Positions 1 through 64,000 of a stretch of 64,000 nt of DNA are shown one piece after another (the first letter of the stretch is position 1; each line of letters begins with the position of its first letter). The position numbers and the translations under genes are program-made. The notes below the pieces were generated by a model. That model was not told the DNA's origin, searched no databases, and worked only from the letters and a program-made list of their open reading frames with translations. This stretch comes from Malacoraja senta (taxonomy: Eukaryota). The stretch is from assembly GCA_038087875.1 (NCBI GenBank), contig CM075988.1, positions 16,804,001 through 16,868,000 on the forward strand, given 5' to 3'.

Positions 1-595
1 GCAAACATTTGAAAAAAAAATCAATTCTAACTCAAAGGCAATGGTGCAAGTGTTTGAGAAATATGGCAAGCATTCAGACAGCTCCTGGAAGGCAAAAAGG
101 TGATCAATCTTGTTGTAGTCCATGTTCTAATCAAGTGAGACCAGCCTCTGAGTCTAGCCCCATGCATTCAGCAATACTTCTCAGTCCATTACCTTGTCTT
201 TCTCCCTGTGTTTTCCCCAAGTCCTGACAGCCACCCAACCAAAATAAACTACCCACCAGCTAAGTCAATTGGCAATCTGCCATCTCCTTCTGCACCAGTT
301 CAATTTGTTCTAACTCGTGATAGATCCTTCAAGGTCACTTAACCTCAAAAACCATCAACAGTATTTGCTAAATAATTCCTATCATTTTGCAGTTTTGTCA
401 TCAGCTTTTATGAAATATCCAGACTTGGTACAACATCTGATTTATAAATGACTAAACAGTTGGACGTGGATAGGTGACTTATCTGATTGGAACCTTTCTT
501 CAAAGTCTGAAGAAAGGTCCTGACCCGAAATGTAGCCAATTCATATCTTCCAGATATGCAGCCTGACCCATTGAGTTATTCCAGCACTTTGTGTC

Positions 596-911
596 AATAG
601 ACAATAGACAATAGACAATAGACAATAGACAATAGACAATAGGTGCAGGAGTAGGCCATTTGGCCCTTCGTGCCAGCACCGCCATTCAATGTGATCATGG
701 CTGATCATCCCCAATCAGTACCCCGTTCCTGCCTTCTCCCCATATCCCCTGACTCCGCTATTTTTAAGAGCCCTATCCAGCTCTCTCTTCAAAGCATCCA
801 GAGAACCTGCCTCCACCGCCCTCTGAGGCAGAGAATTCTACAGACTCACCACTCTCTGTGAGAAAAAGTGTTTCCTTGTCTCCGTTCTAAATGGCTTACT
901 CCTTATTCTTA
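596..911 (-). mobile_element. CR1 3' fragment with (TAGACAA)n tail, nested in a Penelope end
   Basis: About six 7-bp tail units; body nearly identical to 14298-14655. Confidence 0.88.
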
Positions 912-2329
912 ATGTCATTTTTTATTGTTCTTTTTTTGTAAACCTGCATCTGAAATGTCTTGTGTCTGGCTTTATTATGTGTAATACTGAGAGAATGCTG
1001 CACGATCAGAGATGCATCTTTAAGGCGAGGTATTACACTGAGGCCAAGCCTGCCTTCTGAGATGAGCTTTCAAAGAACAGCAATGACCTGGCTAAGATAG
1101 ACACAAAAAGCTGGAGTAACTCAGTGGGTCAGGCAGCATAGAAACATAGAAAATAGGCCCTTCGAGCCAGCACTGCCACTCAATATCATCATGGCTGATC
1201 ATCCAAAATCAGTACCCCGTTCCTGCTTTTTCCCCATATCCCTTGATTTTGTTAGGCCTAAGAGCTAAATGTCACTCTCTCTTGAAAACATCCAGTGAAT
1301 TGGCCCCCACTGCCTTTTGTGTCAGGGAATTCCACAGATTCACAACTCTCTGGGTTAAAAGGCTTTTCCTCATCTCAGTCCTAAATGGCCTACCCTTATT
1401 CTTAAACTGCATCTCAGGATAAAAGGAATAGGTGACGTTTCAAGTCGAGACCCATCTTCAGAATCAGTCACAAAAACAGACTATTTGATCATTTTCACAA
1501 TACTTTTATTGAGAGTTGTCCGTACGTTGACTGCCACATTACCCAACTTATTTCTATCACTTTGAAGGTTCAATGGTGAAAATACAAATCAAGGTCAGGT
1601 CTACGGAGACTGCAGGTGCTGGAATCTTGAGGACAAAACAAAGTTCTAGAACTCAGCAGGCCAGGTAACATCTGCAGAGGGAAATGAACAGATGATGTTT
1701 TGGCTCAGGACCCTTCTTCAGTATGCCCAATGTTTCGTGCCAGACCCTTCTTCAGACTATAGATGGTGGAAGTACGGCTTACATTCAACAGAGTCACATT
1801 GTCCATGCTGACAGAGTTGCATTCTGGAATAGTCCTATTTGCCTTTATTTGGCCCATATCTCTCCAAACCATTCCTAGCCATATATCTGTCTATGTGTCT
1901 TTTGAAAGTCATAATTGTATCCATTTCTACAGGTTCTCTGGTAGTTTGTTCCAGGTATGGACTTCCCTCTGAATGAAAAAGTTGCCCCAGAGGTCCCTCT
2001 TAAATCTCTCTCCTCTCACCTTCAACTTATGCCCTCTAGTTCAGAATCCTCTGCTTGGAAAAAGACTGTGGGCATCCACTTTATCTTCATAATTCTGTAC
2101 ATCCCTCGCCTCCAGCGTTCCAAAAAACAAAGACATAGTCTATCAAGCCTCTCCCAATAACAAGCCTGCAAGTCTACAGATGTCCTGGTGAATCTCTTCT
2201 TCACCCTTTCCAACAGTACTTAGCACAATTCATATTCTGTTCCACACTGAAAACGTCATCTGTTCCTTTTCTCCAGAGATGCTGCCTGACTCGCTGAGTT
2301 ACTCCAGCATTTTGTGTCCATGTTCAAAA

Positions 2330-3780
2330 GCGAACTGCTGACAGCCAGGGAAGAGGTTGAGGGGTGGGGAGACGGGTGGTGCAGATGTGCCCTGGAGCCC
2401 TCTTCCTCTGATAGGTGGGGCGAGATTGGGGCTGGAGTAATGCAGCAAGTGCCACATCTGTGGCTCAGCGGTGTTGGAGGCCAGCAAAAAGAATAGGAAA
2501 CCTACAGTGATGGGGGATTCAATTGGATGGGGACAGCGTTGACTTTCTGCAGCGACAAGCATGAGTGCAGGAGAGTATATTGTGTCCCGGGTGTCAGGTC
2601 TAACATTGTCCAGGAGAAGCCCCAGGCCACTTTGAAGGGAGAGGATGAATGGGTACTGGTCACGGCACACATTAGTACCAATGACATGTTACAGTTTATT
2701 ATCATGTGTACCGAGGTACAGTGAAAAGTGTTTGTTGCGTGCTATCCAGTAAGCGGAAAGCCTATACGTGATCACAATCGAGTCATTTACAGTGTACAGA
2801 TACATGATGAGGAAAATAACATTTAACGAATGGGCAACAAAGCAGAGTGACGTCTTACAAGCTGAATATAGGAAGAAAGGAGATGAATTGGAAAAGCAGG
2901 ACCTTAAAGATAATAATCTCAGGATCACTCCCAGTGCTGCAGGTTAGCAAGAATCGATATGGAAGGATTGATAAGATGAATGTGTGGTTAGATGGTGGGG
3001 TAGAATGGTGGGACCTAGATCCCTAAAGCATTGGAACCGGTTCTGGTTCTGGATCCTGCACCCAGACAGGAGTGGGATTTCTATCCCCACAGGATGTTGC
3101 TAGTGCTGTTGGCAAGGGTTTAAACCAACATGGCAAAGGGATGAATAAGCACCTGAGCGAGTGGCAAAAGGAGAGGGAAACAAAGATGGAAATGAAAGGC
3201 AGAAGAATAGAAAGAGAAAGGAAGGCCAGGCAGCAAACAGAAACACAATAGACCTGACAGCAGGGGTTAATGAAAGGAAAGATGTTAAAACAAATAATTA
3301 AGACCTCTATCTGAATGCATGTTGTATCTGAAACAAAATCAATGAACTAACAGCAGAAATAGTGATGAACAGATATGATCTGGATCTGATCTGATAGCTA
3401 TCACAATAGCAAAGAGATCAAAGCTGGGAACATGGTGTGCAGGGATATTTGTAAGGCAGGAAAGAGAAGGTGGCGAGACATCTCTGCTAATCAGAAATGA
3501 AATATAAGTACAGTTGGGAGATATTTAGGTAAAGGTTAAAAATACGAAGCAACGGCAGTAGTGGTGAGAGTATAATATGGGTCTCCAGGCATAAGTCCTA
3601 CTATAGGAAACGTTAAAATTAAGAAATAATGGAAGGTCTTTAAACAAAAAGTATTGCATTAATCATGGTTGACTGTAATTCTAATGCACACAGGGTTAAT
3701 TCAATTTGAAATGGAACACAAAACAGAAATTCTAGGGTGCATTTGGGATAGTTTTCAAAAGCAAAATATTGTAGGGACAT
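2330..3780 (+). pseudogene. Old CR1 LINE 5' half: ORF1 SGNH-esterase-like and APE endonuclease remnants
   Basis: VMGDS..., YCVPGVR, LKGEDE..., HISTND resemble CR1 ORF1 esterase blocks; LYLNA near 3305 resembles the endonuclease start; many stops and frameshifts. Confidence 0.7.
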
Positions 3781-3826
3781 GAGACTGAAAATGGTACAAA
3801 ATAGAGAAAAACAACCAAACTGCTGG

Positions 3827-4200
3827 AGGAGCAGAATGGGCTGAGCAGCATCTGCGGAATGAAAGGAATTAGCCAAACGTTCTTTCCTTCCACAGATGCT
3901 GCTTGGCCCGCTGAGTTCCTCCAGCAGATTTTTTGTGCTCTGACATATTGTGGAGGTTGTCATGGAACAAGCCATTTTGAATGTGATGATAGACACAAAG
4001 TGCTGGAGTAACTCGGCGGCTCAGGAAGAATCTCTGGAGAAACAGGGTTCCCTGGACAAAAGGGGAACCCTTCAGAAAGTCCCTGACCTGAAACATCACC
4101 CATCCTTTTTCTCCAGAGATGCTGCCTGACCCGCTCAGTTACTCCAGCGGTTTATGTCTATCTTTGGTATAAACCGGCACCTGCAGTTCCTTCCTACACA
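3827..4200. repeat. Two consecutive inverted pairs of Penelope 3'-end repeats
   Basis: CTGCTGGAGG...CCTCCAGCAG (about 3830-3930) and AGACACAAAGTGCTGGAG...CTCCAGCGGTTTATGTCT (about 3990-4160). Confidence 0.75.
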
Positions 4201-4932: not shown

Positions 4933-6970
4933 AAAAGCACATTTTCCATTGTGGGCTTTTCCCTTTTATCTTCCTATAAAAGTTTTCACATTATGTTTTT
5001 GAACTCATTCTGATATGACAGTGGATTGTTTAATGCTTCTTTGTATGTATGCGAAGGTAGACGCCAAATGCTGGAGTAACTCAGCGAGACAGGCAGCATC
5101 TCTGGAGAGAAGGAATGGGTGACAATTTGGGTCGAGACCCTTCTTCAGACTATTGTATGTATGCATCTGGGTTAATTGCAAATGGAAAAAAAAAGATTTT
5201 CAAAGGAAACTTAACTTTTTTGACCCTGCTGTCAATTTATGCCTGTGTACTCACACCTACTTACTGTTGGGATCAGCAAACAATGGGTAGAATGGCCTTC
5301 TTTTGTGTTATACATTTTCTATGATTTTCTTTGATCTTCGTACATGTCCATTGTAGCTCCTAGCACATTGCTCACTGTGCACCACCATTGAAGTGGATAC
5401 AATTACTACTACTTCACATTACAAGGGTAGGGAAGGTTTGGAGAGATATGGGTCAAATGCAGGCAGGTAGAACCAGCCCAGAATGCAAACTTGGTCAGCA
5501 TGGATAAGGTGGGCTGAAGGGCCTGTTTCTGTGTTGTATAGCTCTAAGACTCGGTGACTACGCCATCAATGGCTGTGCCAACATCCTACACTCTGGAATT
5601 CTCTCCCTATACCTCATTATTTTTCTCTCTCACTCCTTTGTTTTTTTGCATTCTGAAATTTCAGCAGCTCCATGCCAGCCTTTATCTAAAAATGTTCCTT
5701 TTGAATATTTTACAGCATTTAAATTGCATTGCATCTTACTTTTAGAAACCATGCATCTTCCACTGATTTCACATTTAAACTTACTTTGAGACAGGCAGAG
5801 TTAATGATCGGAGAACAATCCTGGTTTGACATCAGAAGCACAAGTGATGTGGCCAAAATCCCCAGTGGCCTTGTGTACCTGGATGGTGGTCTGTTGGGGT
5901 CAGTTGTGTAATGGGCAGACCATTTACCAAATGTGCCTACCAACGGGATCACCATTTTATTCTGAAACCAAGTTTTTCTACTGACCTATTTATTTCCTCA
6001 ACCGGACTAAATTTATTCAGAAAGTCAAGCTTAGTACGAAAAAACATGAAGAGGGCTCTGGAGGCAAGCAAAACAAAGCTACATTAACGGCAGCAAATGG
6101 TTAAGATCAATCAGACTGCTGACACACTTATTGGTGTAAGTTGTAAGCATCATGATAGATTGTACGGTGGCAATTCAATAGTCCGACCGCATTTATTGAA
6201 GACAAAATCTTCTAGATTACATGTCAAGTAGATGGAGTGTACAACTCCAGGTTTATTAAATATTAAAGGCTCGCAAATCTCAGCACCATTGCCTTAGAAA
6301 ATAAATGAGAGTTGATCATTAAAGGGCGCATGGTAGGATATGTATCTACATCCAGCATGTCCACGGTAGCAAGTCCAATATGCATGGAGCTAACTGTCTG
6401 AAGAAGGGTCCTGACCCAAAACATCACCTATTCATTCTCTCTAGGGGCGTTGCCTGACCCGCTGAGTTCCTCAGGGACTTTGTGTTTTGCTCAAGATTTC
6501 AGCATCTGCGGTTCCTTATATCTCCAGACACCCATACAGATACATCCATTAATATCTTAAAATAGGTGGGTGTGGGCACAACCAGCCAGCCACATTGAAC
6601 TAGCTTCAGTAGCATAACGATCATGGACACTCTCTTCATCTCCAATCCCTCATTCAATTCAGAGGTATATCATGGGTTTTATTGTAGGTCGGAACCAATG
6701 TACCATCTCAAACCATGTTGCTTTGTCATTGATGCCATTTTCTGGTGGCAGGGTGAGGCGGAGTTAATTTAGGGGAGAATATTTACAGATAATGAAGGGA
6801 GAGGAGCATTTACTCAGCGTTCCCTTTGCCCTGGGCCTCCCTGAAGAACTGGGTTGCATCAGGCTCTCCCTGCTTCAATATCTATTAAACTCACAGCCTT
6901 TTACAATCGTCAGTGCTCCTTCACCAGTCCAGCCAAAGCCATTCACCACATTCCACGGCCCAGAGTTAGA

Positions 6971-7545: not shown

Positions 7546-10500
7546 CTTGGACTTGTAAAGAAGAGAAAGGTAACAGGGTAATAGAAGATTTAAAACAGAG
7601 GTAGCATGTTACAAAGGTTCTCTACTCATTGCGTGATGTCTCAACCCCATACATTGCAATGATATGGGGAGAAGGCAGGAACGGGGTACTGATTGGGGAT
7701 GATCAGCCATGATCACATTGAAGGGCCGAGTGGCCTACTCCTGCACCTATTGTCTATTGCCTATTGAATGTTATCACCTAATTGTCTGAAAATAATGGCC
7801 AGAATCACCTGCTGAGCCCAAGGTTAGGGGAGACGCTGAGTGTGGCCATGTGGGGGAGCTGACTTCTCATTGATTCTGATTCCCCGCTGCAGTGCGTGGG
7901 ATGGTGCAGCTGCTCCACCCACCTCGGCACAGAGGTCAGGCGATCAGAGGTTTCAGTTTACACCCAGCACACTTCACAGCATCAACAGAAGGACAGATGG
8001 CAGCGATCCCTGACTCAACCCTTTGGATTGGCTTCACTGATAAGACAGTGACCAAGGCGTGGCTAACCAAAGGCGATAAGATTCCATCCATTTCTCTCCA
8101 ACAATGATCGGTACACAATGTGCATTCTGCTGCTGGTCCCTTTAGAAATCTTGCCAGTTAGACCTTCATCATGGCATAGAACACATTAACATATAATAAG
8201 AATTACCATGGCTGTCTTTTACCATCAGGGTCCTGACCCAAAACTTCACCTATTCACGTTCTCCAAAGATGCTGCCTGACCTGCTGAGTTACGCCAGCTC
8301 TCTGTGTCTTTTGACCATTTTATGGAGGGGATATAAAAGAGGGAATACACTGGCTTAAGGTTTCTGTAAATTAGTACCACAAATATTGGCTCGATTAATG
8401 AATGCCCTGTTTCTACGTCATATAGACCATCGAACTGGCCTTTTGGCCCAAAATGTTTGTGCTGAACATGACCAACTTGTTGCACATCATCCATTCTTTC
8501 CATTCCCTGCATATCCACGTGAGAATCGAAAAGTCTCTTAAATGCCACTATTGTATCTGCCTCTACCCCACCACTGGCAGTGCGTTCCATTCACCCACCA
8601 TTCTGCATAATAAATCTGCCGCGCACATCTCCTTTAAACTTTGCCCCTCTCACCATAAAGCACTGCCCTCTGGTCTTTGATATTTCCATCCAGGAAAAAA
8701 AGTTCTGACTGTTTACCATATTGCTTCTCATAAGGTTAATATTCCTTCTTGACCCACAGAACATATATATGTGTACCTATTGTACCAATACCGTAACATA
8801 GCATATCATAAGATTCTTACTATGCCTAGAAATTAAATGGGACATTGCAGGGGAAAATGCCATGTCGAGAAGCAGCACTTTTTCCTTAATTCAGAGTTTA
8901 AACTGTTCAACACCATTAGCACCTTCGATGAAGGTGTGATGAATTGTCCAAGTAGTCATTAGTTTGTAATCTCGCTAAATTAGGTTGTAATAGCAGAGTT
9001 GTTAAATTTTTAGTATTTTTAAAAGTAATTTATGTAGTTTGTAAATCGGGCTATAAAATTTAAATTCAAAGCATTTTGAAGAATGTACAAGGTACACAAA
9101 AATGCTGGAGAAACTCAGCGGGTGCAGCAGCATCTATGGAGCGAAGGAAATAGGTAACGTTTCGGGCCGAAACCCTTCTTCAGGCCCGAATGTACAGTTT
9201 TGCCTCTGCTTCCTGTACATCCATAAACATGGCAGTCTTTAAGTTACACCAGAATCTCAAGCCCAGAAAGAAGGCAAACAGATTGAGTCACTGAAGAAAA
9301 AAATGAACGTTAAAGCGAGGTGCTACAGTGCTTCTCCTTGAAGTTTCCATTACTTGTTCTCTGATCTCACAGAGGAAGATTTACAATTTTTAGGGATAAA
9401 AAAGCAACATGAGCTATGTTGAACCTGCAACACCTCACCATCTTAAGTCATAAAGTCATAGTGACTCACAGCGTGGAAACAGGCCCTAAGGCCCAACTTT
9501 CCCATACTGGCCAAAATGTTGCATAGGCACGAGTCCCACCTGCCTGCGTTTGGGCCATATCCCTCTAAACCTGTCCATGTAAATGTTGCAATAGTACCTG
9601 CCTCAACTACCTCCAACAGCAACTCGTTCCATATACAGTACCCACCACCCTTTGTGTGAAAAACATACCCCTCAGGTTCCTATTAAATCTTCCCCCCTCA
9701 CTTTAAACCCATTCCCCTACTCTGAACAAGAGATTCTGTGTGTCTACCCAATCTATTCCTCTCATAATTTTGTACTCTTCTGTAAGATCACCCCTCATCC
9801 TCCTGCACTCCAAGGAATAGAGTCCTAGCCTGCTCAACCTCTCCCTATAGCTCAGGCCCTCGAGTCCTGGCAACATTCTTGTTTAGTCACACAAATGCTC
9901 CTGATTGGTAAATACAAGTCCATTCCTTCATTGAGTTTGAGTCAAAATCCTGGAGCTTCGACAGGAGTGGCTTCAACATGAAGCAGGTTGAGAAAAGATC
10001 ATATTTCCAGAGGATAATAAATGCTGGGCAATCCAATGGAATTCTTCCCATGAAAAAATTATATAAATGTATTTACATCAGCAACACATTACCCAAACAA
10101 CAGAGTTGAAAGTTAAGATGTTTAATTATCATTTGTACTGGCAACAGACCAGTGAAATTCTTATTTGCTGCAGCTTCATAGTCAATGATGCATAACGCAC
10201 AAATAAATAAAAAAATAACACATAAATTAATAATCGGTATTGCAGGTTACTGGACCAATAATATGCAAAAACTGGTCCGTAGTTTAACCAAAATAGAGAG
10301 GACAGTAGATCATAGTTGCTGAGGGAGAGGAGTCAAGACCCAGAACATCACCTGCCCAGGTTCTCTAGAAATGTTGCCTGACCTGCTGAGTTACTCCAGC
10401 ACATTTTGTCATAGAAACATACAAAATAGGTGCAGGAATAGGCCATTCTGCCCTTTGAGCCAGCACCGCCATTCAATATCATCACGGCTGATCATCCACA

Positions 10501-12310: not shown

Positions 12311-13744
12311 CTGGTCGACTCTCTCCCCCCACCCCTCCCACCTGCTTCCTTTCTGGGTCCTTTTAGAAATCCTGCACCATCTGCCCAGGTACAAGCACTC
12401 AAAACAATAGTCTTGAATAGGCCAGATGTGAAAGGGAAGGGCTTATTTATTAAAAGGCACGGGACTGTCACCAAATATAGTGGATGACAATCATTTATGC
12501 TCCATAGTAAAAACTCAATTATCGGAAACAAGAGAGGTCAGATATCTGTATATATTTTTTATTATTAAACAGGACAGTTCATTTAAACATCCAAAAGTAA
12601 ATGAAATCCTCTTTTTATTTTTTTAAACAGAGCACCCAGAGGACATGTGATGTATTCCGGAGGTCAGATGACAGTTTAAAAAAAACTCTCTCACTTTTTA
12701 ATCTGAGTTTGGAAACTTGGTAATTATAACTTGTGCTGCTCTGCCTTTGTAACTCAATGCGTTGACATTGCAACGCTGCCAGCTCCATATAACGTTGTAT
12801 GTGGTGACGAGACTATTCCAAGACAGATAATTCCACTGTCAATCACGTCAGGCGATATCCTTGCTGTAAGTGACAGGTATTGAATTGCAGCCGATAACTG
12901 TCCACCATGCTGTGCATTTCCAGCAAACATACCTTGCTCCCTCTGCTCTTTAACAAGGTGTGTTAGTATATTGCTGATTTTAGCTGTACAAATGTTGCTT
13001 GTGGTTAACCCAGATTCAAATCCAATTCAATGGACGTCACAGAATTTTCAGTTGAGTTTCTGATGTATTATATGGAGTCTATGGCTTGGAAATTGAATGT
13101 CACCTATTGTTGGTGCGTTAAAACTCGGCTATGTTTAACAATGACACCAAATCAGGTTCCTTTGCAAAAAAGATGGCCCAAAAGGGTACTTGGGATAACA
13201 TAGGCCCCAGAACCATGCAGTAAGGTAGGATCAACCCTGGTCAATGCAGATTGTGATCATTAGCTGCATCGGTCCAAGAAGGACATCAGCCAAAGGCACA
13301 CACTCCAAGGAGGCAAGCAGCAGTCCTGATAGAGGTGAGGATCCTGGTCTCAACCCGAAACATCAACAATTCCTTGCCCCCCCTCCCACCCCCCACAGAT
13401 GCAGCTCAACTCCTTGAGTTCCTGCAGCAAATTATTTGCAGCAATAATTCACCTGTGGCTACCACAAAGAAGAAAGAACTCTCTGATCCACGTGAAGGGA
13501 GAAGGAGCTGGCCCATGAGATATACCCCAGCCAAGTTAGTCCTGCATAAAGCCTGCCTCCCCAAACCAGACCAACTATACGCAGTGGGTATATACACAGA
13601 ATGTTGGAGTAACTCAGTAGATCAGGCAGTATCTCTGGAGGAAAGGAATAGGTTTCGTGTCCAGACCCTTCATCAGACATGATGATGACTACATGCTGTG
13701 GGTTCAGCTTACAACTATGTTCTGCCAAAACATTTAGGTTCGAG

Positions 13745-14169: not shown

Positions 14170-14970
14170 GGGTCTGTCCTGGACCACCTCCATTGTCAGA
14201 GTGAGGCCAAACAGAAATTGGAGGAACAGCACCTCATATTTCGCTTGGGCATCTTACAACCCAGCGGTATAATTTTTGATTTCTCTAATTTCAAGTAACA
14301 ATAGACAATAGGTGCAGGAGTAGGCCATTTGGCCCTTCGTGCCAGCACTGCCATTCAATGTGATCATGGCTGATCATCCCCAATCAGTACCCCGTTCGGG
14401 CCTTCTCCCCATATCCCCTGACTCCGCTATTTTTAAGAGCCTTATCTAGCTCTCTCTTGAAAGCATCCAGAGAACCTGCCTCCACCGCCATCTGAGGCAG
14501 AGAATTCTACAGACTCACCACTCTCTGTGAGAAAAAGTGTTTCCTCGTCACCTTTCTAAATGGCTTACTCCTAATTCTTAAACTGTGGCCCCTGGTTCTG
14601 GACTCCCCCATCATCGGGAACATGTTTCCTGCCTCTAACGTGTCCAAATCCTTAACAACCTTAACAATAACGCATCCATTCCCACCCCCATCCTAGTCGT
14701 TCTACCGGTTACATTGTTTGCATTCTTGTATCCTTCTCTTTAGCACGTAATCCCCAGCCAACAATGGGCCATTATGGACTCCACCCTCCTGTTATCTGTT
14801 ATCTGTTGCCGGCCCTAGTTTGTTCTGGCCTTTCCTCGCCTCCAGCTTCCCCACCACCCCCCTCCATCTTTCCCTCTGAAGAAGGGTTCCAACCCGAAAA
14901 GTCATCTATCCCTTTTCCCCAGAGATGCTGCCTGACCCGCTGAGTTACCCCTGCATTTTGTGTCCATCTT
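14170..14970 (+). mobile_element. Penelope-like 3' fragment interrupted by a CR1 fragment
   Basis: KLEEQHLIFRLGILQPSG (GIY-YIG end), then pyrimidine-rich UTR and CTGAAGAAGGG...CCCGAAA at 14876. Confidence 0.85.
14298..14655 (-). mobile_element. CR1 3' fragment
   Basis: Same subfamily as 596-911 and homologous to 40716-41208. Confidence 0.88.
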
Positions 14971-15794
14971 CAGCTTGTTTCTGAGCTGTATCTTCCCGTG
15001 ACTCCATAATCTCCATCTTGGATTGTGTTGGGATCGACTACAATTCCAATTGGTAATTGTAGGGTGGAGTTTAATTTTGTACACAAGCCACAAGCGTCGG
15101 AAGGACGGAGAGACATGGCGGGGCCACCACAGATAAAGTAAGTAGGACAGGGCTCCAGTTGACTCCCCACCGTCTGAAATTCACCAGTCAATGGAAGGAC
15201 GCACAAGTACATTTCTGGGAGAGCTGCACATTACTGAAAACAGTTGTAGCAAGGCTTTATTAATTGGATCAGGGATTCATTTTATTGATGTCTTATAATC
15301 AGAGCAGGTGGACCAGCAAAGCAGCTTGTGAGGGATTATTATGCTTCATCTGGGCTCTGTTGGCTGATTATGGAGCACAGTGCTGCTGATAATGATTGGA
15401 TAGTGGAGAGTGTCGGCAGTTTTGCAGTGGGCACTGTTATTTTGCAAGGTCCTTGCAGAAAGCATCTCTCTTGTAGGGAGTTCTTTATATCCTGTGTGGA
15501 TAATGTCGGCCCAGCAGTGACAAGCATATCCTTGAGCTGGGACATCTCCTGACAGCTGCCGTTCTCCTCCAATTCCTTTCTCTGCAACTCTCCAGGCCGT
15601 GCCTCATGGACCACAAAGTTCCACATCTCTTTGTCTCTCTTTCCCCAACTCTGGCTCCTGTCTTCCATTGACAACGTTCATGTTTTGTTAGTTTTAGAGA
15701 TACAGCGCGGAAACAGGCCCTTTGATCTGCAAACTGCATTGCCTGCAAACTCAGACAGGATGGGAAGACTTCATGATCCAGTGCTGACAACATC

Positions 15795-16095: not shown

Positions 16096-16167
16096 GATGA
16101 CCTGTAGATAGACACAAAATGCTGGAGCAACTCAGCGGGACAGGCAGCATCTCTGGAGAGAAGGAAT

Positions 16168-16202
16168 GGGTGACGTTTCGGGTCAAGACCCTTCTTCAGA
16201 CT
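16168..16202 (-). ncRNA. Minimal type I hammerhead ribozyme motif (representative copy)
   Basis: Minus strand CUGAAGA-A-GGGUC-UU-GACCC-GAAA-CGUC: both core boxes, stem II and a GUC triplet; such motifs are known in Penelope-like elements. Confidence 0.7.
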
Positions 16203-16571: not shown

Positions 16572-16810
16572 ACAAGGAACTGCAGATGCTGGTTTACATA
16601 AAAGGACACAATGTACTGGAGTAACTCAGCAGGTCAGGAAGCATATCTGGATGATGTGGATAGGTAATGTTTCAGGCTGGGTCCCTTCTTCAGAATCATT
16701 GAGAAAGGGGAGGGAGTCCGAAGAAAGGTCCCGACCCGAAACGTAACCTACCCATGTCTTCTGGAGATGCTGCCTGACCCATTGAGTTACTTCAGCACTT
16801 TATGTTTTAT
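16572..16810. repeat. Inverted pair of Penelope 3'-end repeats
   Basis: Minus-orientation copy to ~16694 followed by a plus-orientation copy from ~16716. Confidence 0.8.
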
Positions 16811-47922: not shown

Positions 47923-48053
47923 GTGTTTAAGAAGGAACTGCAGATGCTGGAAAATCAAAGGTAGACAAAAGTGCTGGAGAAACTCATGGGATGAGGCAGC
48001 ATCTATGGAGCGAAGGAAATAGGCATCATTTCAGGCCGAAGCCCTTCTTCAGA
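47923..48053 (-). repeat. Penelope 3'-end repeat embedded in the ERV
   Basis: Same family as 52165-52295 and 63492-63622, with several substitutions including CpG decay. Confidence 0.88.
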
Positions 48054-48336
48054 GTAGATTGGGGTTATTCAACTGCAGCTAGAGAAACAGGATTTACAAC
48101 TTTTTTATTGATTCAGGAAAGGCTGCTGTGCCCACACCCTGGAGAGTGGGGGGAAGCCACCTACAGGCCCTGGGCAATTAACTAATTATGTATGGACAGC
48201 AATTAATCCAGGTCTTGCCAGATCTGCATTCCCAGGTTAGAGGAGCTGTGAGCACAGGGACGAGTCCATAAAGGCTACAAAATGACCATGTGCTGGGACA
48301 AGAAGAAATTGAGATTGTGTTGAAAGGAAAAACCAA

Positions 48337-49319: not shown

Positions 49320-52300
49320 ATATGCAGGGCAAGGTTATTTTTAATACAGAGGGTAGAGGGTGCCTGGAGCAAACTTACGGGGGCAGTGGTGGAAAAAGAT
49401 ACAAGACTGGTATTTTAAGAGAGTTTTAGATGGACATATAAATATGCAAGGAATGGAGGGATATGGCTGACATGAAGGCAGAGGAGATTAGTTTAACATG
49501 GCAAGATGTTAGTGGCATTTAAACGACTTTTGGATCGGCATATGATTATACAGGAAATGGAGGGATATGGGTTATGTGCAGATAGGTCAGTGATGGTCTT
49601 GGTATCATGTTCGGCACAGACATGTAGGCTGAAGGATCTGTTCCTGTGCTGTACTTTCCATGTTCCACAACTAACCCACAGGAATTGAATCTTGGTATTA
49701 GATGATCAAAACTGAAAACAAAGACAGTCAATTCTCCTCCCACCCAAAAGGCAAAAAAAAAGGGTTATTCGTGCGTTTTCTCCAAAATGGTAACAAACTG
49801 TGGGCAATTTGGAATATTTTCCTCGTTCATTTCAATGACAACTCTAAAGACTATGGGAAAGATGAGCTTTAAACAATGCAATAACTTAGCTTTAAAATAT
49901 ATCCCAAACATTCATTATTGTATAGTAATTGCACGTCATGTAATTACAGCCTTATCAAAAATTAATGAACAGGTTATGGTCCTGAAATTACAGGAGGTTT
50001 TTATTAATTCAGTACTACAGCCAAGCAACTGTCTGATCATCAAGTGGTAATTAATAATTTAGGACAAAGGTAGAACAGTTTTACCAAAAGCTAAACACTT
50101 CCCTCCGTCGCTCAATCACCAAATGCACAGGTTTCTCATGGCGTGGGCCAGACGGACCAGGTGACTCCCACATTAGATATCCTGGGTTGGACCTAAGCCA
50201 GAATTCCCACTCAAGATCGCCTTTCTAGAATCTAAAAATGGAACGAGACTACGGGCAAAAGCTGACTTGGAGGAATTGTTCAGCAATAACATTTTACTCA
50301 TGTGTCTGGACAAGAACTGATGGGCAATGTAAGAGGTCTATCATCCTTACCTCCACTCCACACAGTGAATCCAACTCCACACAGACAGCACCCGTGGCCA
50401 GGATTGAACCCTGGTCTCTAGTGCTGTGAGGGAGCAGTTCTACTGTGTTGCCCTACAAAATATCATATAGTCAAAGAGAGATACAACACAGAAACAGGTC
50501 CTTTAACTCCTACTGCCTGTCAAACTCACATTTTCTTTCTAATGGCAATCCTGCCATAACACATTTCACTTTCCCCACATTTGCATCAATTCCGCCTCCG
50601 ATTCTATCCCCTGTCTAAGCACCAGAAGGGCCCAAATGGCAGAAAACCCCACAGGTGCAGTACCCGAAGTCAGGATCGATCCCGGGTCTCTGGAGCCTTG
50701 AGGCAGTGGCTCTACCAGCTGCACCACCAGGTCATAAGGTCATAAGGCCCTAAGGTATAGGAGTAGAATTAGGCCATTCGGCCCATCAAGTCTATTCCAC
50801 CATTCAATCACGGCTGATCTATCTCTTCCTCTTAACCCCATTATCCTGCCTGATCCCCATAACCTCTGATACCTGTACGAATTAAGAATCTATCTATCTC
50901 TGCCGTAAAAATATTCACTGACAGCCTCCACAGCCTACTGTGGTACAGAATTCCACAAATTCACCACCCTCTGACTAAATACATTTCTCCTCATCTCCTT
51001 CCCAAAGGTACATCCCCCAATTCCAAGGCTATGACCTCTAGTTCTAGACTCCCACTAATGGCAACATTAGAGGTCGCCCAAAGCCTGCAAAAGCCCAGCA
51101 AGCCACTCATTTCAAGAGGATTTGGAATGGGCAATAAATGTTGGTCGTCATTTGCCAGATGTCGAGAGTGTTTAATTGGAATTAACGGAACAATGAAATT
51201 CTTACTTGCAGCAGCATACCAGATCTGTAAACACAGTACTTATGGGGCAGCACAATGGCGCAGCAATGGAGTTGCTGCCTTACAGTGTCAGACCTGTGAC
51301 CATGTGGGTTTTCTCTGGGTGCTCTGGTTTCCTCCTACATTCCAAAGACATGCAGGTTTGTAAGTTAATTGTCTTTGGTAAAAGAATTGTAAATTGTCCC
51401 AAGAGTTTAAGATAGTGCTAGTGTACGGGGATCTCTGGTCGGCACGGACTCAGTGGGCCGAAGGGCCTTTCTCTAAAGTCTAAAGTGAAGTCTAAACGTA
51501 ACACAATAAACAAAAGAAAATTCAAAATTCTTTATATCAACAAAAGGATCAGGAATAGGAAAGCTCAATGCCCAGAAACGACCAGAAACTATATTTAACA
51601 CAGAGAAACAGGCACGGCTTAGAGGGATATGGGCAAATGCAAGCAGGTGGGACTAGCGTCGAAGGGACAACCTGATCGGCATGGGCAAGTTGGGCCATAG
51701 GGCCTGTTTCTATGCTGTGTGACTCTATAAATATGACAACATAAATGCAACCTACTCCATGGACCATTTCCAGCAATCTAATCTTTTCCTAAACCCAAAT
51801 TTGTTAAAAGAAAATCAGGAAACGTACGACTATAAACATAATATTCAATCAAGCACTTATGTTCTGTTTTCTGTTACGACAGACAATAAAGTTTTCTGAA
51901 TCTGAATCTGAATCTGAATGATATACACACTGTCCACTGAACACCCCAATATGTAATTATTTATTTCCCATTGGGAAATTATTATATAAAAATTTAAAAA
52001 ACGTTTTTTTTAAAATAAAGATGCAAAGATTTTGACTCCATAAAATTGTGTGACAATAAAAATGTTTTAATTAAGACTTGAATTTCAGGGTTCAAAGAAC
52101 CTAAACCCTGAAACTCTGCTCTCACAGATGATGGCACTATTGAGCCAGTTGTCTCAGTACAGTATGTTTAAGAAGGAACTGCAGATGCTGGAAAATCGAA
52201 GGTTGACAAAAATGCTGGAGAAACTCAGCGGGTGAGGCAGCATCTATGGAGCGAAGGAAATAGGCGACGTTTCGGGCCGAAACCCTTCTTCAGACAGTAA

Positions 52301-55300
52301 TTGTCTTCTATGTTTCAGTGCAGTCTTTGCTCACGCAGATGACTGATTGGAAGACAAGGTGAGAGGTCATCTCACTCTGTTTGTAGTCACTGTCCGCCTC
52401 CTGGACCGTGGCTGTGCTGCAAACTCAACCTACTGACCTCATCTGCTCAAGTATTCAATCTGTACTCCAGATAAGGCTCGTGCATGAGTCAGTTTTGCAC
52501 TATCGTGTTTTATGGCTCTGCACAAAGCCAATTATCCCCGTTGCAGCAGATGGCATTCACTATACAATCAGGGGGAAAAAACTGTTAACTTCCCCCTTGA
52601 ATATTAAACAAAAAGTCTTCAAAAGTTCCCGATCTGTAAGCAATAGGTCACAGCCTAAGTTCAGTGCAAGTGAAGATGGACACAAAATGCTGAAGTACAG
52701 TAACTCAGCGGGACAGGCAGCATCTCTGGAGAGAAGGAATGGGTGACGTTTCGGATCAAGACCCTTCTTCAGTGCAAGTGCCTGTGTTTGCTGCTTTTTG
52801 ATATGCAGCCGGAGGTTTGCGACATTAGCTCCTTTCCAATGACTTTATCAAAATGAATGCAAGGACCTCAGGACGGCACCGAGAAAGTGTTGCAGTGTGA
52901 GGGGTGCTGTCTTCCTACATTGACATCAAACCAAACACCCTCATGAACTCTCAGAAAGTTACTAGGACACTACGCTTCAGCTCAAGGTACAAACATTACT
53001 GTTTGTGGAGCTTTCTGTGCACATATTCACTGTTAACCTCCTTATAGTATAACCGTGTCCATGATTCAATACTTCTCTGGTTGTAAAGCTCATTTGGAAT
53101 GTCCCAAAGCTCTGAAAGGCACTATTTAAATGCAAATTTCCCCTTTGATATATGTATTCTAGATGAACAATTCAATGTACCAAGTCAAAGTGTTTTAATC
53201 ATTAAATTATTTTAATACCACAATGACTTTGTTGCCATCAGTAAATGTGCTTAATTGGATTTTGAGTTATGGCTATAAAATAATGAGTCCAGTCGAATTA
53301 TAAGTAGGGCCACCACTTAGTAATGTCTTAACATGCATTATTACTCTGTCACAAACACTGTTCCTGGAACTATTACTAATGAGATGCTCACATATTCATG
53401 TCCAGCTAGGTCTCCGTGGAACCATATTTCTTCATTTTAAATGTTATGCACATTCTGGTTAGAGCACGTGGATATTTCCACTGCTGGGAACAAGACGATA
53501 GGATGAAAGCTTTCTGCGTAATGGCGCGAATGCTAAGTACTCTACGTTCTTGACATGGTACCGTGGGAGTGCTCACAGCTCAGAGCAAGGGGCTATTGCT
53601 TCCAGGTGTTTAAAATACAGTCTTTGCTTCTAACAAGCCCCACAGCCCAGAAACAGTTGCTTTGTGTTGTTTTCTTTTCCACTGTTCTACAATGTAAAAT
53701 AATTTTTACACAACTGAAATACTGTGATAACTATGTGTTTAAGAAGGAACTGCAGATGTGATAACTAGTTAGAAAACATACAAGGAAAAATTAAGAGAGG
53801 TAGGCCACTTAGTCTCTCACCGGGATCAAGGTTGTCCTGAATGCAACTTTTTCAACTGAACCCATTTTCCCGTTGACTGTATCTGCTGCAAACTTTCACT
53901 TCCATGTTTATCAAATATCTATCTACATCTGCCTTAAACCTTTTCAGAATTTCTTCCTCATAGGATAGTTGAAGCTGGGTTCCAAAGACTTGCAAACCTA
54001 GAAAGTATTGTTTTATTTTTCAGTGTAGTTTAGAGATACAGCGTGGAAACAGGCTCTTTGGCTCACCGAGACCGTGCCGACCAACAGTCACCCCGTACAT
54101 TAACACTATACTACATTTCAGAGACAAGTAAACTACCAACCTGTACCTAGAAACATAGAAAATTGGTGCAGGAGGAGGCCATTCGGCCCTTCGAGCCAGC
54201 ACCGCCATTCATCGTGATCATGGCTGATCGTCCCCAATCAATAACCCGTGCCTGCCTTCTCTCCCATATCCCTTGATTCCACTAGCCCCCAAGAGCTCTA
54301 TCTAACTCCTGTTTGGAATGTGGGAGGAAACCGGAGCACCCAAAGAAAACCCACGCGGTCACGAGGAAAACTCAAGGAACATTCAGACAGCACCCATAGT
54401 CAGGATCAAACCCAGGCCTCTGACACTGTAAGGCGGCAACTCTACCACTGCACCACTGTGCCGCCCTAGTCTTAAATGGGTCACCCCCTTATTTTTAAAC
54501 AGTGACCCTCAGTTCTCCACAAGGCAACACCCTGTATGCACCCTTTCAGGATCCTACATCTTTTAATCGAGTCAGTGGATGCAAGCCAAATTTTTTTCCG
54601 GGAAGTTATCCTGCTATTCCAGACACGTCAAAGAAACCTTTTTATGAACAGATTCCAATACATTAAATCTCCGTTAAATTTGGAGCCATCGATGTATGCT
54701 GCTCTCCAGATACTGTCTCACTGTTGCCCTATATAACCGGAGCATAACCTCTCCATTTTTGCATTCAATTTGCTAAGTAACAAACAATAACATTCTGTTA
54801 ACTTTCCTAATTACTAGGTGTACCTGCACATTAGCCTTTTGTGAATCATGCACAAATTATCATGCATCTCAAAGCTCCACAATTTCTCATCATTTAGAAC
54901 ATTGACCTTTTTGTTTTTCCTTCTAAACTGGACAATTTCACATTTTTCCACATTGTTCCACGTTTACTATTTCTTTGCCCACTTATTTAATGGGTGTCCT
55001 TAAATCCTCTTCACAACTCACTTTTCTTCCTATCTCTGTACCACCAGCAAATTCATCAACCATTACTTCAGTGCCATCAAAACTATTTAGATAAATAGTA
55101 AAAAGTTTTGATTAAATTGATTGAAAGATGCAGCCTTTTGGCCCACCGGGGCCACGCGGACTAACAACCATACGTTCACACTAATTCTATGTTATCCCAC
55201 TTTCTCATCAACTCCCTACTCAGTACAGGGAATTTTCAGAGGCCAATTAACCTACAAGCAAGCACATCTGTGTGATGTGGGAGGAAAGCAGAGCACCCAG

Positions 55301-60630: not shown

Positions 60631-63491
60631 GTTATTCTGAATTCAAATGTAGTTATACACCAGGGCCAACTCCTGAAGTTGGGTCTTAGAGATGGGGGAG
60701 CAGTTGAACAAAATTAAAGAGTCTGAAGACCAAGTCTCAACATTGGATCTGAAGAAGGGTCCCGACCCGAAACATCACGTGATGTATTCAAGAGTGAGTT
60801 AGATAGATGTATTCAAGAGAGAGTTAGATATAGCTCTTAGGGTTAACTGAATCAAGGGATATGAGGAGAAAGCAGGAACAGGGTACTGAATGTGGATGAT
60901 CAGCCATAATCATATTGAATGATGGTGCTGGCTCCTGCACCTGTTTTCTATGTTGCTAAGTCACCCATCCTTTCTCTCCAGAGATGCTGCCTGACCTGTT
61001 GAGATATGCCAGCACTTTGTGTCTATCTTGACCAAAATTAGGCAAGTGGCAATTTGAGTCATGATTTGCTTTAAGTCCAGCTCAGCTCAATAGCATCCTC
61101 TTTGCCCAAGTCAATAATCCTAGGGATGAGGAGGATACTCTACAGGACATCAATAGTCTATCAATCAGGCACTGCAGTCCTGCATTGTTGAAGTCACCAT
61201 CTCTCAGATGCAACGTTAAACCAAAACAGCATTGATCCAGGTAGCGGGATTCTACTCCGCTGAATATTGTTATCATGGAAGAGGAAAAGCAAGGATCGAT
61301 CTCCCCATGTCCTGGCTAACATCCCCAAAAAACAAAAGAAATAGCTGGTGATTCACCATATTGGCGTTTGTAGATTGGCCAAATTGGCTGCCCACAAAAT
61401 GTTTTTAAAAACGCACACTTCATGGGTTATTTATCGGTGGTAAAACATCAGAAGGATGCTGGATGCTCTATTTCTTTCAAGTTGCAGGAGACTCAGGTTT
61501 GTCTAGTTTACTTGTAACAATAGAAAAGTGCAATGTTCTGATTCAGAGTGGGGCAGGGTTGGAATCAAGGGTTTGGGGAGAAGACACAAGAGAGTGCAGA
61601 TGCTGGAATCTTGAGTAACTAAAAAAGTGCTACAGGAACTTGGCGGGTCAGGCAGCATCTGTGGAGGGAATGGACAGAAGATGTTTCAGGTCGGAATCCT
61701 TTTTCAGACTAAAGATTCGGGAGGGTTCAGTGATCTGAAGCAGGACAGGCTGGTAAGAGACAGTTTAGTTTAGTTACAATGGGAAACAGGGCCTTTGGCC
61801 CACCGAGTCCACGCCGCCCAGCGATCGACGTACACCAGCAATATCCTACACACTAGAGACAATTTATAATCTTTACCAATTAACCGACAAAGCTGTATGT
61901 CATTTCAGTGTGGGAGGAGACCAGAGCACCCGGAGAAAACAGGGAGAACGTACAAACTCCATACAGACAGCACCAGTAGTCGGGATCGAACCCGGGTCTC
62001 TGGCGCTGTAAGGCAGCAAATCTACTGCTGCGCCACTGTGCCATCCTTTTAACAGGGGCTGTGCAGCCAAATTTCTGAGCCTACAGGTTGCAACTGAATA
62101 AGGAATTCTGGTCGGAATTCATCAAACATGTGGGCTAAAGTTGAGACAAATGCGTCTATTCTGGATGAAGTTCACGGACTTGCTTTGAAGTAATCCTCAT
62201 CATGACAACTAACTATCACGCACTACTATGGATGTACCATGATCCAAGGTGGACACCTCATGAACAATAACCACGTTACAGACCGTTCCCAGCCAAACTA
62301 TGCCAGTAACTTACTGTTCCCCAAAACAGGGAATTTTCCTTTTACTGATTTAGCCACAGCGGACAATTTGATGAGACTGCAACATGCAGTTTTCTTCTTG
62401 CGTATGGCGTGCACAGCCTTAAGTTGTAGGACAACTTGTTCTGTTTGATCTTATTTGATTGTGCACGCCGGGTTGATTGCATTCGTCGAAACAGGGCGGA
62501 CCACGTGAAGGTTGCAGTCTCCCACCCCCAACATGCAGCAAGACAACCCCTTGGAATTTATTGTTAACTGTAGGATTATTAAATGTATTTTGTTTATTGG
62601 CGGCACAGTGGCACAGCTGGTATAACTGCCGCCTCCGCGCCAGAGATCCGTTTAGATCCTGAACTCAGGTACTGTCTGTGTGGAGTTTGCATGTTTTTCT
62701 CGTGACTGCGTGGATTTCCTTCCGTTTCCTCCCTCATCTGAAAGATGTGCAGGCTTGTCAGTTAATTAGCCTCAATAAATTCCCCCTAGCGTGCAGGGAG
62801 TTGATGAGAAAGTGAGATAACATAGAACGGCTGTGAACGGGTGATCGATGGTCGGCGTGGACTAGGTGGGCCGAAGGGCCTTCCTCGGTGCTGTATCTTT
62901 ACAAAATACATAGCTGCTGTGTTTCATTCACCTGGCTTTCCTTGGCTTTGGCCAGCAAACATCACTTACTGTAAGCACATTGTACAGTAAGACACAGAGG
63001 CAAAATCTCCTTCAGATAAGCAAGGTTCTTCCGAGGTGTGATCCAGCACCGGAATAATGCGATTTGTTCCCAGTCACCCTGTGGGAATGGGCTGACTGCT
63101 GGAAATTACCCCATAGGTAATTCTAGTGATAGGTTTACTGTGACCAAAGCTGACAGCCAAGCGCAGCACAGCGGTGGACTTCGAGTCTCTTGACCTTTTC
63201 AAAATGGGTCGCGTTGGGAAAGTATAAATAAACTGATCAACTGCAGCAACTCTTCATGTGTGGAGTTTCCAAACGCTTTAACAGCCAGTGTTGATGATGT
63301 CAGCAGCAATTAGTTATAGAGTTTGACATCACTGTCGTAAAAGGGTCAATTCTGTAAAAAAAAACTTGTGCAATCGACGAACCTCAAACAACCACACAGC
63401 AATAACTACTTGCATTTGCAGGGCACCTTTAATAGAGCAACATGTCCTGAGGCACCTCACAGGATTACCACCAAACACAAATTAAATCCAG

Positions 63492-64000
63492 TGTTAAAGA
63501 AGGAACTGCAGATGCTGGAAAATCGAAGGTACACAAAAATGCTGGAGAAACTCAGCGGGTGCAGCAGCATCTATGGAGCGAAGGAAATAGGTAACGTTTC
63601 GGGCCGAAACCCTTCTTCAGACTGATAGGGGGTGGGGAGAAGAAAGGAAAAAAGGAAGGAGGAGCCCGAGGGTTGGGGGAGGGGAGGAGACAACCAGATG
63701 GCTGATGAAGGGGAGGGGACAGCCAGGGCTAGCAGAATTGGGAGAATTCAACGTTCAGGCCACCAGGGTGTAGACTGCCCAAGCGGAATATGAGGTGCAT
63801 TTCCTCCAATTTACGGTGTTGCTCGCTGTGGCCATGGAGGAGACCCAGGACAGAGAGGTCAGATACGGAATGGGAGGGGGAGTTGAAGTGCTGAGCCACC
63901 GGGAGTTCAGGTTGGTTATTGCGGACCGACCGGAGGTGTTCGGCGAAACGATCGCCAAGCCTCCGCTTGGTCTCACCGATGTAGATCAGCTGGCATCTAG
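63492..64000 (-). mobile_element. Penelope-like element 3' part, running off the window edge
   Basis: Open frame RCQLIYIGETKRRLGDRFAEHLRSV...LEEMHLIFRLGSLHPGGLN (GIY-YIG), then the 3' UTR with hammerhead motif. Confidence 0.9.
63590..63623 (-). ncRNA. Minimal hammerhead ribozyme motif, second subfamily
   Basis: Minus strand CUGAAGA-A-GGGU-UUCG-GCCC-GAAA-CGUUAC; the same stem II occurs at 9153-9183 and 52263-52295. Confidence 0.7.

What the first reader, a model, noticed from the sequence alone, without database searches (positions are those of the whole stretch)
505..63623. More than 20 dispersed minimal hammerhead-ribozyme motifs on short Penelope-end repeats
Seen: CTGAAGAAGGG...CCCGAAAC (or its complement), intact or decayed, at about 507, 1440, 1700, 1740, 5125, 6398, 9160, 13655, 14876, 16175, 16670, 16719, 20860, 21530, 23318, 35608, 39724, 43758, 48030, 52270, 52748, 60749, 61684 and 63597. 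Stem II differs between subfamilies yet keeps pairing (GGGUC-UC-GACCC versus GGGU-UUCG-GCCC). GAAA is followed by a short palindrome (ACGU or AACGUU), and many copies stop within a few bases of the CUGA box. Established: Penelope-like elements carry minimal type I hammerheads that can cleave as dimers. Inference: these ~120-bp units may spread as a non-autonomous, ribozyme-bearing mini-element, or reverse transcription stalls at the ribozyme. At about one per 3 kb they could affect any pre-mRNA crossing the region. Stem I pairing is weak.
Basis: partly seen in the sequence, partly recalled or inferred. Interest (0 to 1): 0.72.

Follow-up and report, generated by a model that had tools for sequence, protein, structure and literature searches.

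The report
Hammerhead-headed Penelope stubs in skate DNA
This skate-like DNA is peppered with short (about 95 or 130 base) pieces of Penelope-like jumping genes that carry a mostly decayed minimal hammerhead ribozyme motif, a known kind of repeat; the one unusual point is that most copies keeping the motif begin within a few bases of one fixed spot just before it, which likely marks the start of the element's RNA rather than a ribozyme cut.

Summary
All 24 listed motifs are real; a profile search finds 38 hits (0 in the reversed window), about 30 insertions. They are pseudo-LTR pieces of Penelope-like elements: two sit directly behind ORF remnants whose best homolog is a skate protein (86%), and they show target duplications, five head-to-head pairs and two 3' ends about 35 nt apart. 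The ribozyme case is weak: core intact in 9 of 20, helix I only 2 bp, no covariation above shuffles. The 5' edge is real and sharp: in 17 short copies native letters persist to A(-3) before CUGA and fall to background at -4; contigs of four runs show loose ends at -2 to -6. It is not the cut site (+28). Short copies interleave with long ones in a tree, one being identical to an ORF-linked copy, so they are by-products, not a separate family. Likeliest mechanism (about 50%): reverse transcription starts internally at +95 or +130 and runs off an RNA 5' end at an initiator-like TCAGTC. Known kind; one testable new detail.

The parts
63733..64000 (-). C-terminal end of a Penelope-like ORF (88 aa open to the stop; cut by the window edge), subfamily A
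   Evidence: translation; best hit 86% to a Leucoraja erinacea protein, relatives carry PF00078, PF01541, PF26215
63624..63732 (-). native 3' UTR: pyrimidine-rich tract (93% C/T at -35..-5) ending TATC
63490..63623 (-). ORF-linked hammerhead + long tail; A(-3)=63623, C3=63620, predicted cut after 63593, short end about 63526, long end about 63491
35739..36800 (-). decayed Penelope-like ORF remnant (end of RT to endonuclease; stops and frameshifts), subfamily B
   Evidence: 71.5% to the 63620 copy over 460 nt
35544..35738 (-). native UTR + hammerhead (C3 mutated to A) + short tail, ORF-linked
9090..9185 (-). short copy, subfamily A, identical to 63620 over 95 nt; 9-bp TSD; 4 letters between TSD and C3; core intact
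52163..52295 (-). short copy with long tail, subfamily A; core intact
47922..48054 (-). short copy with long tail, subfamily A, inside an LTR element; U16.1 lost
5053..5151 (-). short copy, subfamily B; exact 12-bp TSD; starts at A(-3) after one extra letter; core broken
16107..16203 (-). short copy, subfamily B; 9-bp exact TSD with filler; core intact
52673..52772 (-). short copy, subfamily B; exact 13-bp TSD overlapping element letters +1..+5; core intact
43756..43849 (+). short copy; 13-bp TSD with 2 mismatches overlapping +1..+2; core broken
13592..13678 (-). short copy (5-nt deletion after GAAA); 16-bp TSD-like repeat with 3 mismatches
464..596 (.). head-to-head pair; arms meet at about -3
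1090..1463 (-). one copy split by a later repeat insertion (1409-1463 and 1090-1139)
   Evidence: (D1)
1608..1758 (-). two hammerhead boxes 34 nt apart: -3..+28 followed by +1..+116
2250..2333 (+). short copy, match starts at +21 (possibly stem II deleted)
3784..4195 (.). cluster of four arms, two head-to-head pairs
6395..6518 (+). short copy with long tail, older subfamily
8227..8311 (+). decayed short copy, 8-bp flanking repeat
10326..10411 (+). decayed short copy
13346..13442 (+). decayed old copy
14829..14972 (+). copy with pyrimidine-rich UTR upstream (shared with 20882); core intact, palindrome lost
16572..16810 (.). head-to-head pair; minus arm keeps about 20 nt of UTR, plus arm starts at -3
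20795..20939 (-). copy with UTR upstream; core broken
21463..21555 (-). short copy, starts at about +1; core broken
23249..23338 (-). short copy, CUGA box lost
28703..28836 (.). head-to-head pair without hammerhead (+47 and +32); long hairpin
39340..39373 (-). tail-only fragment (+88..+121)
39684..39817 (+). copy with pyrimidine-rich UTR upstream; G12 lost
60748..61031 (+). one copy split by a later insertion (60748-60778 and 60958-61031)
   Evidence: (I9)
61587..61710 (-). short copy with long tail, older subfamily, starts at A(-3)

Best explanation
These repeats are pseudo-LTR pieces of several Penelope-like retroelement subfamilies, each opening with a minimal hammerhead motif, and the short ones are likely run-off products: the element's reverse transcriptase would start at its internal site (+95 or +130), copy uncleaved RNA through the whole ribozyme, and fall off an RNA 5' end predicted to lie at A(-3). 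Shown: Penelope origin, two 3' ends, TSDs, inverted pairs, the 5' limit at -3, cut site copied intact, short copies nested among long ones. Inferred: that -3 is a transcription start (the A of TCAGTC fits the initiator consensus TCA+1KTY, recalled), that the start site in the transcript's 5' leader is used as well as the one at its 3' end, and that cDNA ending there joins the target by 0-5 nt of microhomology, meets a second cDNA (head-to-head pair) or jumps into the ORF. Long copies would come from starts at the 3' copy of the site. The hammerhead is likely a passenger in the stubs and not an active RNA cutter of host transcripts.
For: ORF remnants directly upstream of two copies. In 17 short copies the native letter is kept at -1 in 13, -2 in 12, -3 in 9, -4 in 4 (background 3.7) and at background beyond, whereas 5 of 6 long copies keep -4 and -5. 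18 of 29 5' ends between -10 and +60 lie in -10..+1, p=2e-8 against uniform. Exact TSDs of 12, 9, 13 and 9 bp fix the edge for 5148, 9183, 52772, 16199. Contigs of 4 runs: listed 5'-side loose ends at 63623 (25 contigs, mixed flanks), 63622 (7), 63626 (100), 63625-6 (3); 3'-side at 63492 and 63525-7; joints from 63621/63623 into the ORF (3) and to the opposite strand at 63623. In the anole element RT starts at two internal sites 111-118 nt into the ORF and a tail length further, uses unprocessed RNA, and 5' truncation of the RNA shortens the product (PMC11167929, parts 1-2 read). Penelope's start site lies in the pseudo-LTR (PMC2377424 passages and Discussion).
Against: No RNA 5'-end data: all runs were contigs, none on record as RNA, and table 6 listed no start or end peak. 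No extra G (cap copy) before A(-3) in 4 of the 5 copies with exactly three native letters. In D. virilis the start lies 46+75 nt upstream of helix I, not 3 nt. TCAKTY occurs once per 700 nt in this window. The edge also abuts a pyrimidine tract, a CAG and a small palindrome, each a rival cause. The 100 loose ends at 63626 probably include another subfamily that shares -6..-1. No full-length element is in the window.
Confidence: 0.5

Rival explanations
1. Sequence or protein barrier on a long template: RT starts at the 3' end of the transcript and drops off at the border of the pyrimidine tract (weak hybrid, bound splicing factors) or at the interrupted palindrome TCAG-T-CTGA centred on -1, which would also let two cDNA ends anneal.
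For: Native upstream is 70-93% pyrimidine; head-to-head pairs at 507 and 16718 meet at about -3; palindromes at pLTR 5' ends are described in rotifer Penelopes (PMC3846280 passages); joints from -1/-3 into the ORF need no RNA end.
Against: A stall in the tract should leave parts of it, yet short copies are at background from -4 on; annealing through the palindrome needs cDNA to reach -5.
Confidence: 0.22
2. Non-autonomous, SINE-like mini-element: short copies are transcribed and re-mobilised on their own by the Penelope protein.
For: High density and a fixed unit; the unit holds both RT start sites; 52293 and 48052 share letters not in 63620; non-autonomous PLE derivatives exist (PMC8557442 passages; bioRxiv 10.64898/2026.07.22.740005 parts 1 and 3).
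Against: Short and long labels need 5 changes on the tree (shuffles 5.4); both starred clades hold one ORF-linked copy; 9183 is identical to 63620. Only 20 rows and 90 columns, so a short-only subfamily is not excluded.
Confidence: 0.13
3. Splice-junction origin: the tract plus CAG is a 3' splice site, as in D. virilis where the intron ends at helix I, and stubs come from spliced or 3'-site-cleaved RNA.
For: Textbook acceptor shape before T(-1) in both ORF-linked copies; D. virilis precedent (PMC4209133 part 2).
Against: G(-2) and A(-3), which a splice would remove, are kept above background, and no shared exon-1 letters follow; none of the 15 joints listed (42 more not shown) reads GT..AG on the element strand ending at -2; PLEs are known to keep their introns.
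Confidence: 0.08
4. Ribozyme-caused ends: RT stalls on the folded hammerhead, or templates are self-cleaved RNAs or circles (retrozyme-like).
For: The edge is at the 5' border of the motif; one arm (1729-1758) ends at +28; head-to-tail joints of about 165-nt period in contigs of another species (X18).
Against: RT meets the fold from its 3' side yet copies all of it; 2 of 29 ends are near +28; helix I is 2 bp and the active-like dimer is -6 to -7 against -24 to -29 kcal/mol; the anole ribozyme is not needed for insertion.
Confidence: 0.07

Closest known systems
Minimal hammerheads (min-HHR) in pseudo-LTRs of metazoan Penelope-like elements (Cervera and de la Pena 2014, PMC4209133)
   Same: Type I core, extra base between A9 and G10.1, G10.1-C11.1 pair, palindromic 15.2-16.2, several families per genome, mostly single motifs from truncated elements, some in opposite-strand pairs.
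   Different: Helix II is 4 bp (7-8 in Schistosoma) and helix I 2 bp (4-5 typical; 2 bp in D. virilis). A fixed 5' limit at -3 is not mentioned in the parts read (1-2 of 4), nor are cartilaginous fish.
Poseidon of Anolis carolinensis, PAc (Frangieh et al. 2024, PMC11167929)
   Same: Two internal RT start sites a tail length apart, about 100-150 nt after the hammerhead; uncleaved RNA as template.
   Different: In PAc the ORF starts at stem II; here no ORF start was located. The parts read do not describe solo stubs with a fixed 5' end.
Canonical EN+ Penelope-like insertions (Arkhipova 2013 PMC3846280; Craig 2021 PMC8557442)
   Same: 5' truncation, head-to-head inverted copies, optional 30-40 bp tail, 8-13 bp TSDs, solo pLTRs.
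   Different: Upstream copies are described as variably truncated; here truncation piles up at one point.
Non-LTR retrozymes (PMC7229834; bioRxiv 10.64898/2026.07.22.740005)
   Same: Short, non-coding, type I hammerhead, PLE-related; reported in one chondrichthyan.
   Different: Retrozymes are tandem units with canonical hammerheads that give circular RNA; these are dispersed stubs with a minimal motif whose ends are not the cut site.
Minus-strand strong-stop DNA of LTR elements (recalled, no call)
   Same: Works like it if the best explanation holds: internal priming near the RNA 5' end, run-off, then transfer.
   Different: Here the primer would be nicked target DNA, and the product is integrated as such.

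Membership tests
Canonical EN+ Penelope-like element | ORF with RT and C-terminal GIY-YIG endonuclease | tested here: met
   By homology only: 48 of 96 candidates hit; relatives carry PF00078, PF26215, PF01541. Direct Pfam scan of four ORF pieces found nothing.
Canonical EN+ Penelope-like element | Hammerhead motif in the 3' repeat behind the ORF | tested here: met
   C3 lies about 110 nt after the stop in both ORF-linked copies
Canonical EN+ Penelope-like element | Optional 30-40 bp tail | tested here: met
   3' ends at +93..+96 and +129..+131
Canonical EN+ Penelope-like element | Inverted 5' copies and short TSDs | tested here: met
   5 head-to-head pairs; exact repeats of 9-13 bp at 5 of 38 hits against 4 of 220 mismatched flank pairs, one of the 5 (14876) probably chance
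Canonical EN+ Penelope-like element | Partial tandem in front of a full-length ORF | not testable with these tools
   No full-length copy in the window; no genome held
Canonical EN+ Penelope-like element | Clade (Penelope/Poseidon or Neptune) by RT phylogeny | not tested
   Poseidon is a recalled resemblance only
Minimal type I hammerhead (PLE min-HHR) | Core CUGAnGA...GAAA...UH | tested here: met
   Intact in 9 of 20 aligned copies
Minimal type I hammerhead (PLE min-HHR) | Extra base after A9; G10.1-C11.1; helix II | tested here: met
   A in 19 of 20; G-C 12 and G.U 5 of 20; helix II 90% paired
Minimal type I hammerhead (PLE min-HHR) | Palindromic helix III half | tested here: met
   ACGU in 10 of 20
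Minimal type I hammerhead (PLE min-HHR) | Helix I of 4-5 bp (2 bp in the D. virilis variant) | tested here: inconclusive
   2 bp in native context; 0-2 in 35 of 36 monomer or cross pairings of the six best copies, 4 in one
Minimal type I hammerhead (PLE min-HHR) | Compensatory changes among families | tested here: not met
   1 two-sided cell of 180; score 0.156 against 0.178 shuffled; 20 decayed copies give little power
Minimal type I hammerhead (PLE min-HHR) | Self-cleavage as a dimer or with protein | not testable with these tools
   Needs bench work; folding disfavours the unaided dimer
Non-LTR retrozyme | Tandem units each with a hammerhead | tested here: not met
   No such array among 24 TRF rows; one decayed pair 34 nt apart
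Non-LTR retrozyme | Canonical hammerhead with 6-bp helix I | tested here: not met
Non-LTR retrozyme | Circular RNA | not testable with these tools
   No RNA holder listed, no raw reads
Independent non-autonomous (SINE-like) family | Short copies form their own clade(s) | tested here: not met
   5 label changes against 5.4 shuffled; one short copy identical to an ORF-linked copy
Independent non-autonomous (SINE-like) family | Own promoter activity | not testable with these tools
   Needs RNA data

The most novel reading that the evidence does not exclude
The stubs are not broken 3' ends but complete copies of the transcript's 5' leader: Penelope-like elements make a strong-stop-like first product, from an internal RT start to a capped end three bases before the hammerhead, and in skates this intermediate is integrated so often that it outnumbers the elements. 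Failure or success of the following strand transfer would then explain solo stubs, head-to-head pairs and the partial tandems by which pseudo-LTRs are regenerated, and the genome would hold a map of the start site for every subfamily.
Probability: 0.35. Interest if true: 0.6.

Novelty: new member of a known kind. Interest (0 to 1): 0.28.

Why it matters
As a repeat family it is ordinary: thousands of single minimal hammerheads from truncated Penelope-like elements are on record in vertebrates. The fixed 5' limit is the useful part. How Penelope-like elements rebuild their pseudo-LTR is described as open (PMC2377424 Discussion), and internal RT initiation was shown only in vitro for one element. 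If the limit is the RNA start, existing skate assemblies plus one CAGE data set would test a strong-stop-like step. The idea that these motifs cut host pre-mRNA every 3 kb is not supported.

Tried and rejected
No whole genome is held, so no genome-wide histogram. Two exact-motif scans of metagenome contigs found 0 loci. No RNA holder listed and no raw reads; contigs cannot show starts, strand or level, and summed depth (13-26 million over 63516-63610, 1-2.7 million over the UTR, 3-7 million over the ORF end in run X1) is no copy number and is biased by UTR divergence, so it was not used as proof. Host gene: 290 of 315 mostly unique frames of 50 aa or more scanned against Pfam; the only hit (ALKBH8_N, 39429-39905) lies in what reads as a LINE remnant (recalled); short exons could be missed. 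Strand bias: 7 of 23 on +, p=0.09; all 6 best-preserved copies are on -, a post hoc count with no gene to relate it to. End-to-end pairing (5' box with the tail end): z -2.26 and -1.50 in subfamily A, -1.41 to +0.35 in five short copies, absent from both consensus folds; kept as a lead only. Rfam miRNA-like hits below gathering scores at 28714 and 3820 are the head-to-head pairs. A cut-site class of starts was considered and dropped: 60958 is half of a split copy. Literature: 7 searches found no description of a fixed 5' limit at the hammerhead or of this skate family; Lunse et al. 2017 is not held and was not read, Repbase and Dfam could not be searched, supplements of PMC4209133 and of the preprint were not seen, and the three text supplements of PMC11167929 did not hold the terms; these may already describe it.

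Full report
Numbering. +1 is the C of CUGA (C3); -1, -2 lie upstream; the predicted cut follows +28.

Observation. A CUGAnGA scan and a profile built from 13 copies recover all 24 listed positions. The profile gives 38 hits at E<=0.05 and none in the reversed window. Two pairs of hits are halves of copies split by later insertions (1409-1463 with 1090-1139; 60748-60778 with 60958-61031), five pairs are head to head and one is tandem, which leaves 36 arms in about 30 insertions. The strict motif is exact in 5 copies, 0 by chance. Rfam shows no hammerhead family at E<=1.

Identity. Copies 63620 and 35632 lie about 110 nt behind the stop of ORF remnants, which are 71.5% alike over 460 nt. The 88-aa piece finds 48 proteins among 96 candidates, best 86% to a Leucoraja erinacea protein and 73% to Rhinoraja; relatives carry PF00078, PF26215 and PF01541. 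Direct Pfam scans of four pieces were blank. So the host is most likely a skate and the element a Penelope-like retroelement with a C-terminal GIY-YIG domain; the clade was not tested. Other marks agree: exact flanking repeats of 12, 9, 9, 9 and 13 bp at 5 of 38 hits against 4 of 220 mismatched flank pairs at 9 or more (the one at 14876 lies 35 nt off and is probably chance), head-to-head pairs, and two 3' ends at +93..+96 and +129..+131 (loose ends at 63525-7 and 63492), the 30-40 bp tail of Craig et al. (PMC8557442, passages).

The ribozyme. In 20 of the 23 copies that reach the box (three left out: two end early, one has a deletion), the core is intact in 9, the ACGU palindrome in 10, and core, stem II and palindrome together in 6. 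Losses fall mostly on CpG positions, as in neutral decay. Stem II is 4 bp and 90% paired, but the subfamily change is U-A to U.G, and no covariation measure exceeds shuffles. Helix I has 2 pairs in native context and 0-2 in 35 of 36 pairings of the six best copies. The hammerhead-like dimer scores -6 to -7 kcal/mol against -24 to -29 for the best dimer fold. This fits the published picture: min-HHRs cut poorly in vitro (PMC4209133, parts 1-2 of 4 read), and the anole one cuts only with protein and is not needed for insertion (PMC11167929, parts 1-2 of 4 read). The motif is a real min-HHR by descent; cutting is untested and unlikely in the stubs. No host exon was found in 290 of 315 frames and strand bias is not significant (7 of 23).

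The 5' edge. The native upstream sequence is a 70-93% pyrimidine tract; 6 of 23 copies keep it and 17 do not (background 7.6%). In those 17 the native letter is kept at -1 in 13, -2 in 12, -3 in 9, -4 in 4 and at background beyond. Of 29 arm ends between -10 and +60 (list entered by hand; 6 longer arms and 1 tail-only arm left out), 18 lie in -10..+1 (p=2e-8) and 2 within 5 nt of the cut. TSDs fix four of these edges, with 0-5 nt of microhomology or a short filler. Outside the window, contigs of four runs laid on 63440-64000 at 88% likeness list 5'-side loose ends at 63623 (-3; 25 contigs, mixed flanks), 63622 (7), 63626 (100, partly another subfamily) and 63625-6 (3); 24 of 932 loose-end rows were shown. 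Three of 15 listed joints run from 63621 or 63623 into the ORF, and one turns to the other strand at 63623. The edge is real, lies at or just inside A(-3), and is not the cut site.

Separate family or by-product. On a tree of 20 copies, short and long labels need 5 changes (shuffles 5.4); both well-supported clades hold an ORF-linked copy, and 9183 equals 63620. Stubs were made again and again by each autonomous subfamily. Secondary spread of some stubs is not excluded.

Mechanism. The anole enzyme starts at two internal sites and, in vitro, makes products as long as the RNA's 5' part. Penelope's start site lies in the pseudo-LTR (PMC2377424, passages and Discussion), so a transcript holds the RT start site twice. 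A start at the 5' copy would run off after about 100 or 130 nt. The A at -3 is the +1 of an initiator-like TCAGTC (consensus recalled; one such hexamer per 700 nt here). I give this 0.5. Against it: no RNA data, no cap-G signature, and a start further upstream in D. virilis. A barrier at the tract or palindrome (0.22), SINE-like spread (0.13), splicing (0.08) and ribozyme-caused ends (0.07) are the rivals. Splicing loses because G(-2) and A(-3) are kept; a stall on the fold loses because the whole core is copied.

Comparison and verdict. Single min-HHRs from truncated elements, by the thousand, are the core result of PMC4209133; the 2026 preprint (parts 1 and 3 of 5 plus passages) links retrozymes to PLEs and includes one chondrichthyan; PMC7229834, PMC3846280, PMC6765202 and PMC8969392 were seen as passages. 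Seven searches showed no account of a fixed 5' limit; Lunse et al. 2017 and repeat databases could not be seen. Three earlier AI reports on other genomes reach the same general reading; they are leads, not support. New member of a known kind, with one testable detail; interest 0.28.

Noticed in passing
window 44211-49007: LTR retroelement or endogenous-retrovirus-like remnant: matching 90-bp tandem units at 44211 and 48841, gag-like frame 45434-46480 with a weak RNase H hit, integrase frame 46368-47048 (rve 4e-17). Copy 48052 sits inside it.
   Followed up: partly
run X18 laid on window 63440-64000: Head-to-tail joints from 63624-63626 to 63493-63536 with 6-34 letters between, three of them pyrimidine-rich on the element strand: units of about 165 nt (UTR piece + hammerhead + tail) in tandem or as circles in another species; retrozyme-like lead.
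   Followed up: no
window 1608-1758 (-): Two hammerhead boxes 34 nt apart; the first arm ends at +28, the predicted cut position. Both decayed.
   Followed up: partly
window 3784-4195 and 28703-28836: Fold-back pairs form long hairpins that draw weak miRNA-like Rfam hits; possible sources of small RNA if transcribed.
   Followed up: no
window 63490-63625 (-): The tail looks like two imperfect 27-nt repeats, each able to pair with +45..+52 and with the 5' purine box; in subfamily A the two ends pair (z -2.26); in subfamily B the CUGA box pairs with +35..+49 instead, which would switch the ribozyme off.
   Followed up: partly
window 14173-14297 (+): Isolated piece of the Penelope-like endonuclease coding region without a hammerhead.
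   Followed up: no
window 7015-7452: Inverted repeat with 115-nt arms, 95% complementary, 208 nt apart; MITE-like.
   Followed up: no
window 20992-21077: Hairpin with several sub-threshold miRNA hits, not part of the hammerhead family.
   Followed up: no
window-wide, e.g. 15806-15959, 29226-29460, 50742-51056, 629-912: Abundant tRNA-SINE-like and LINE 3'-end repeat families; family names not tested.
   Followed up: no
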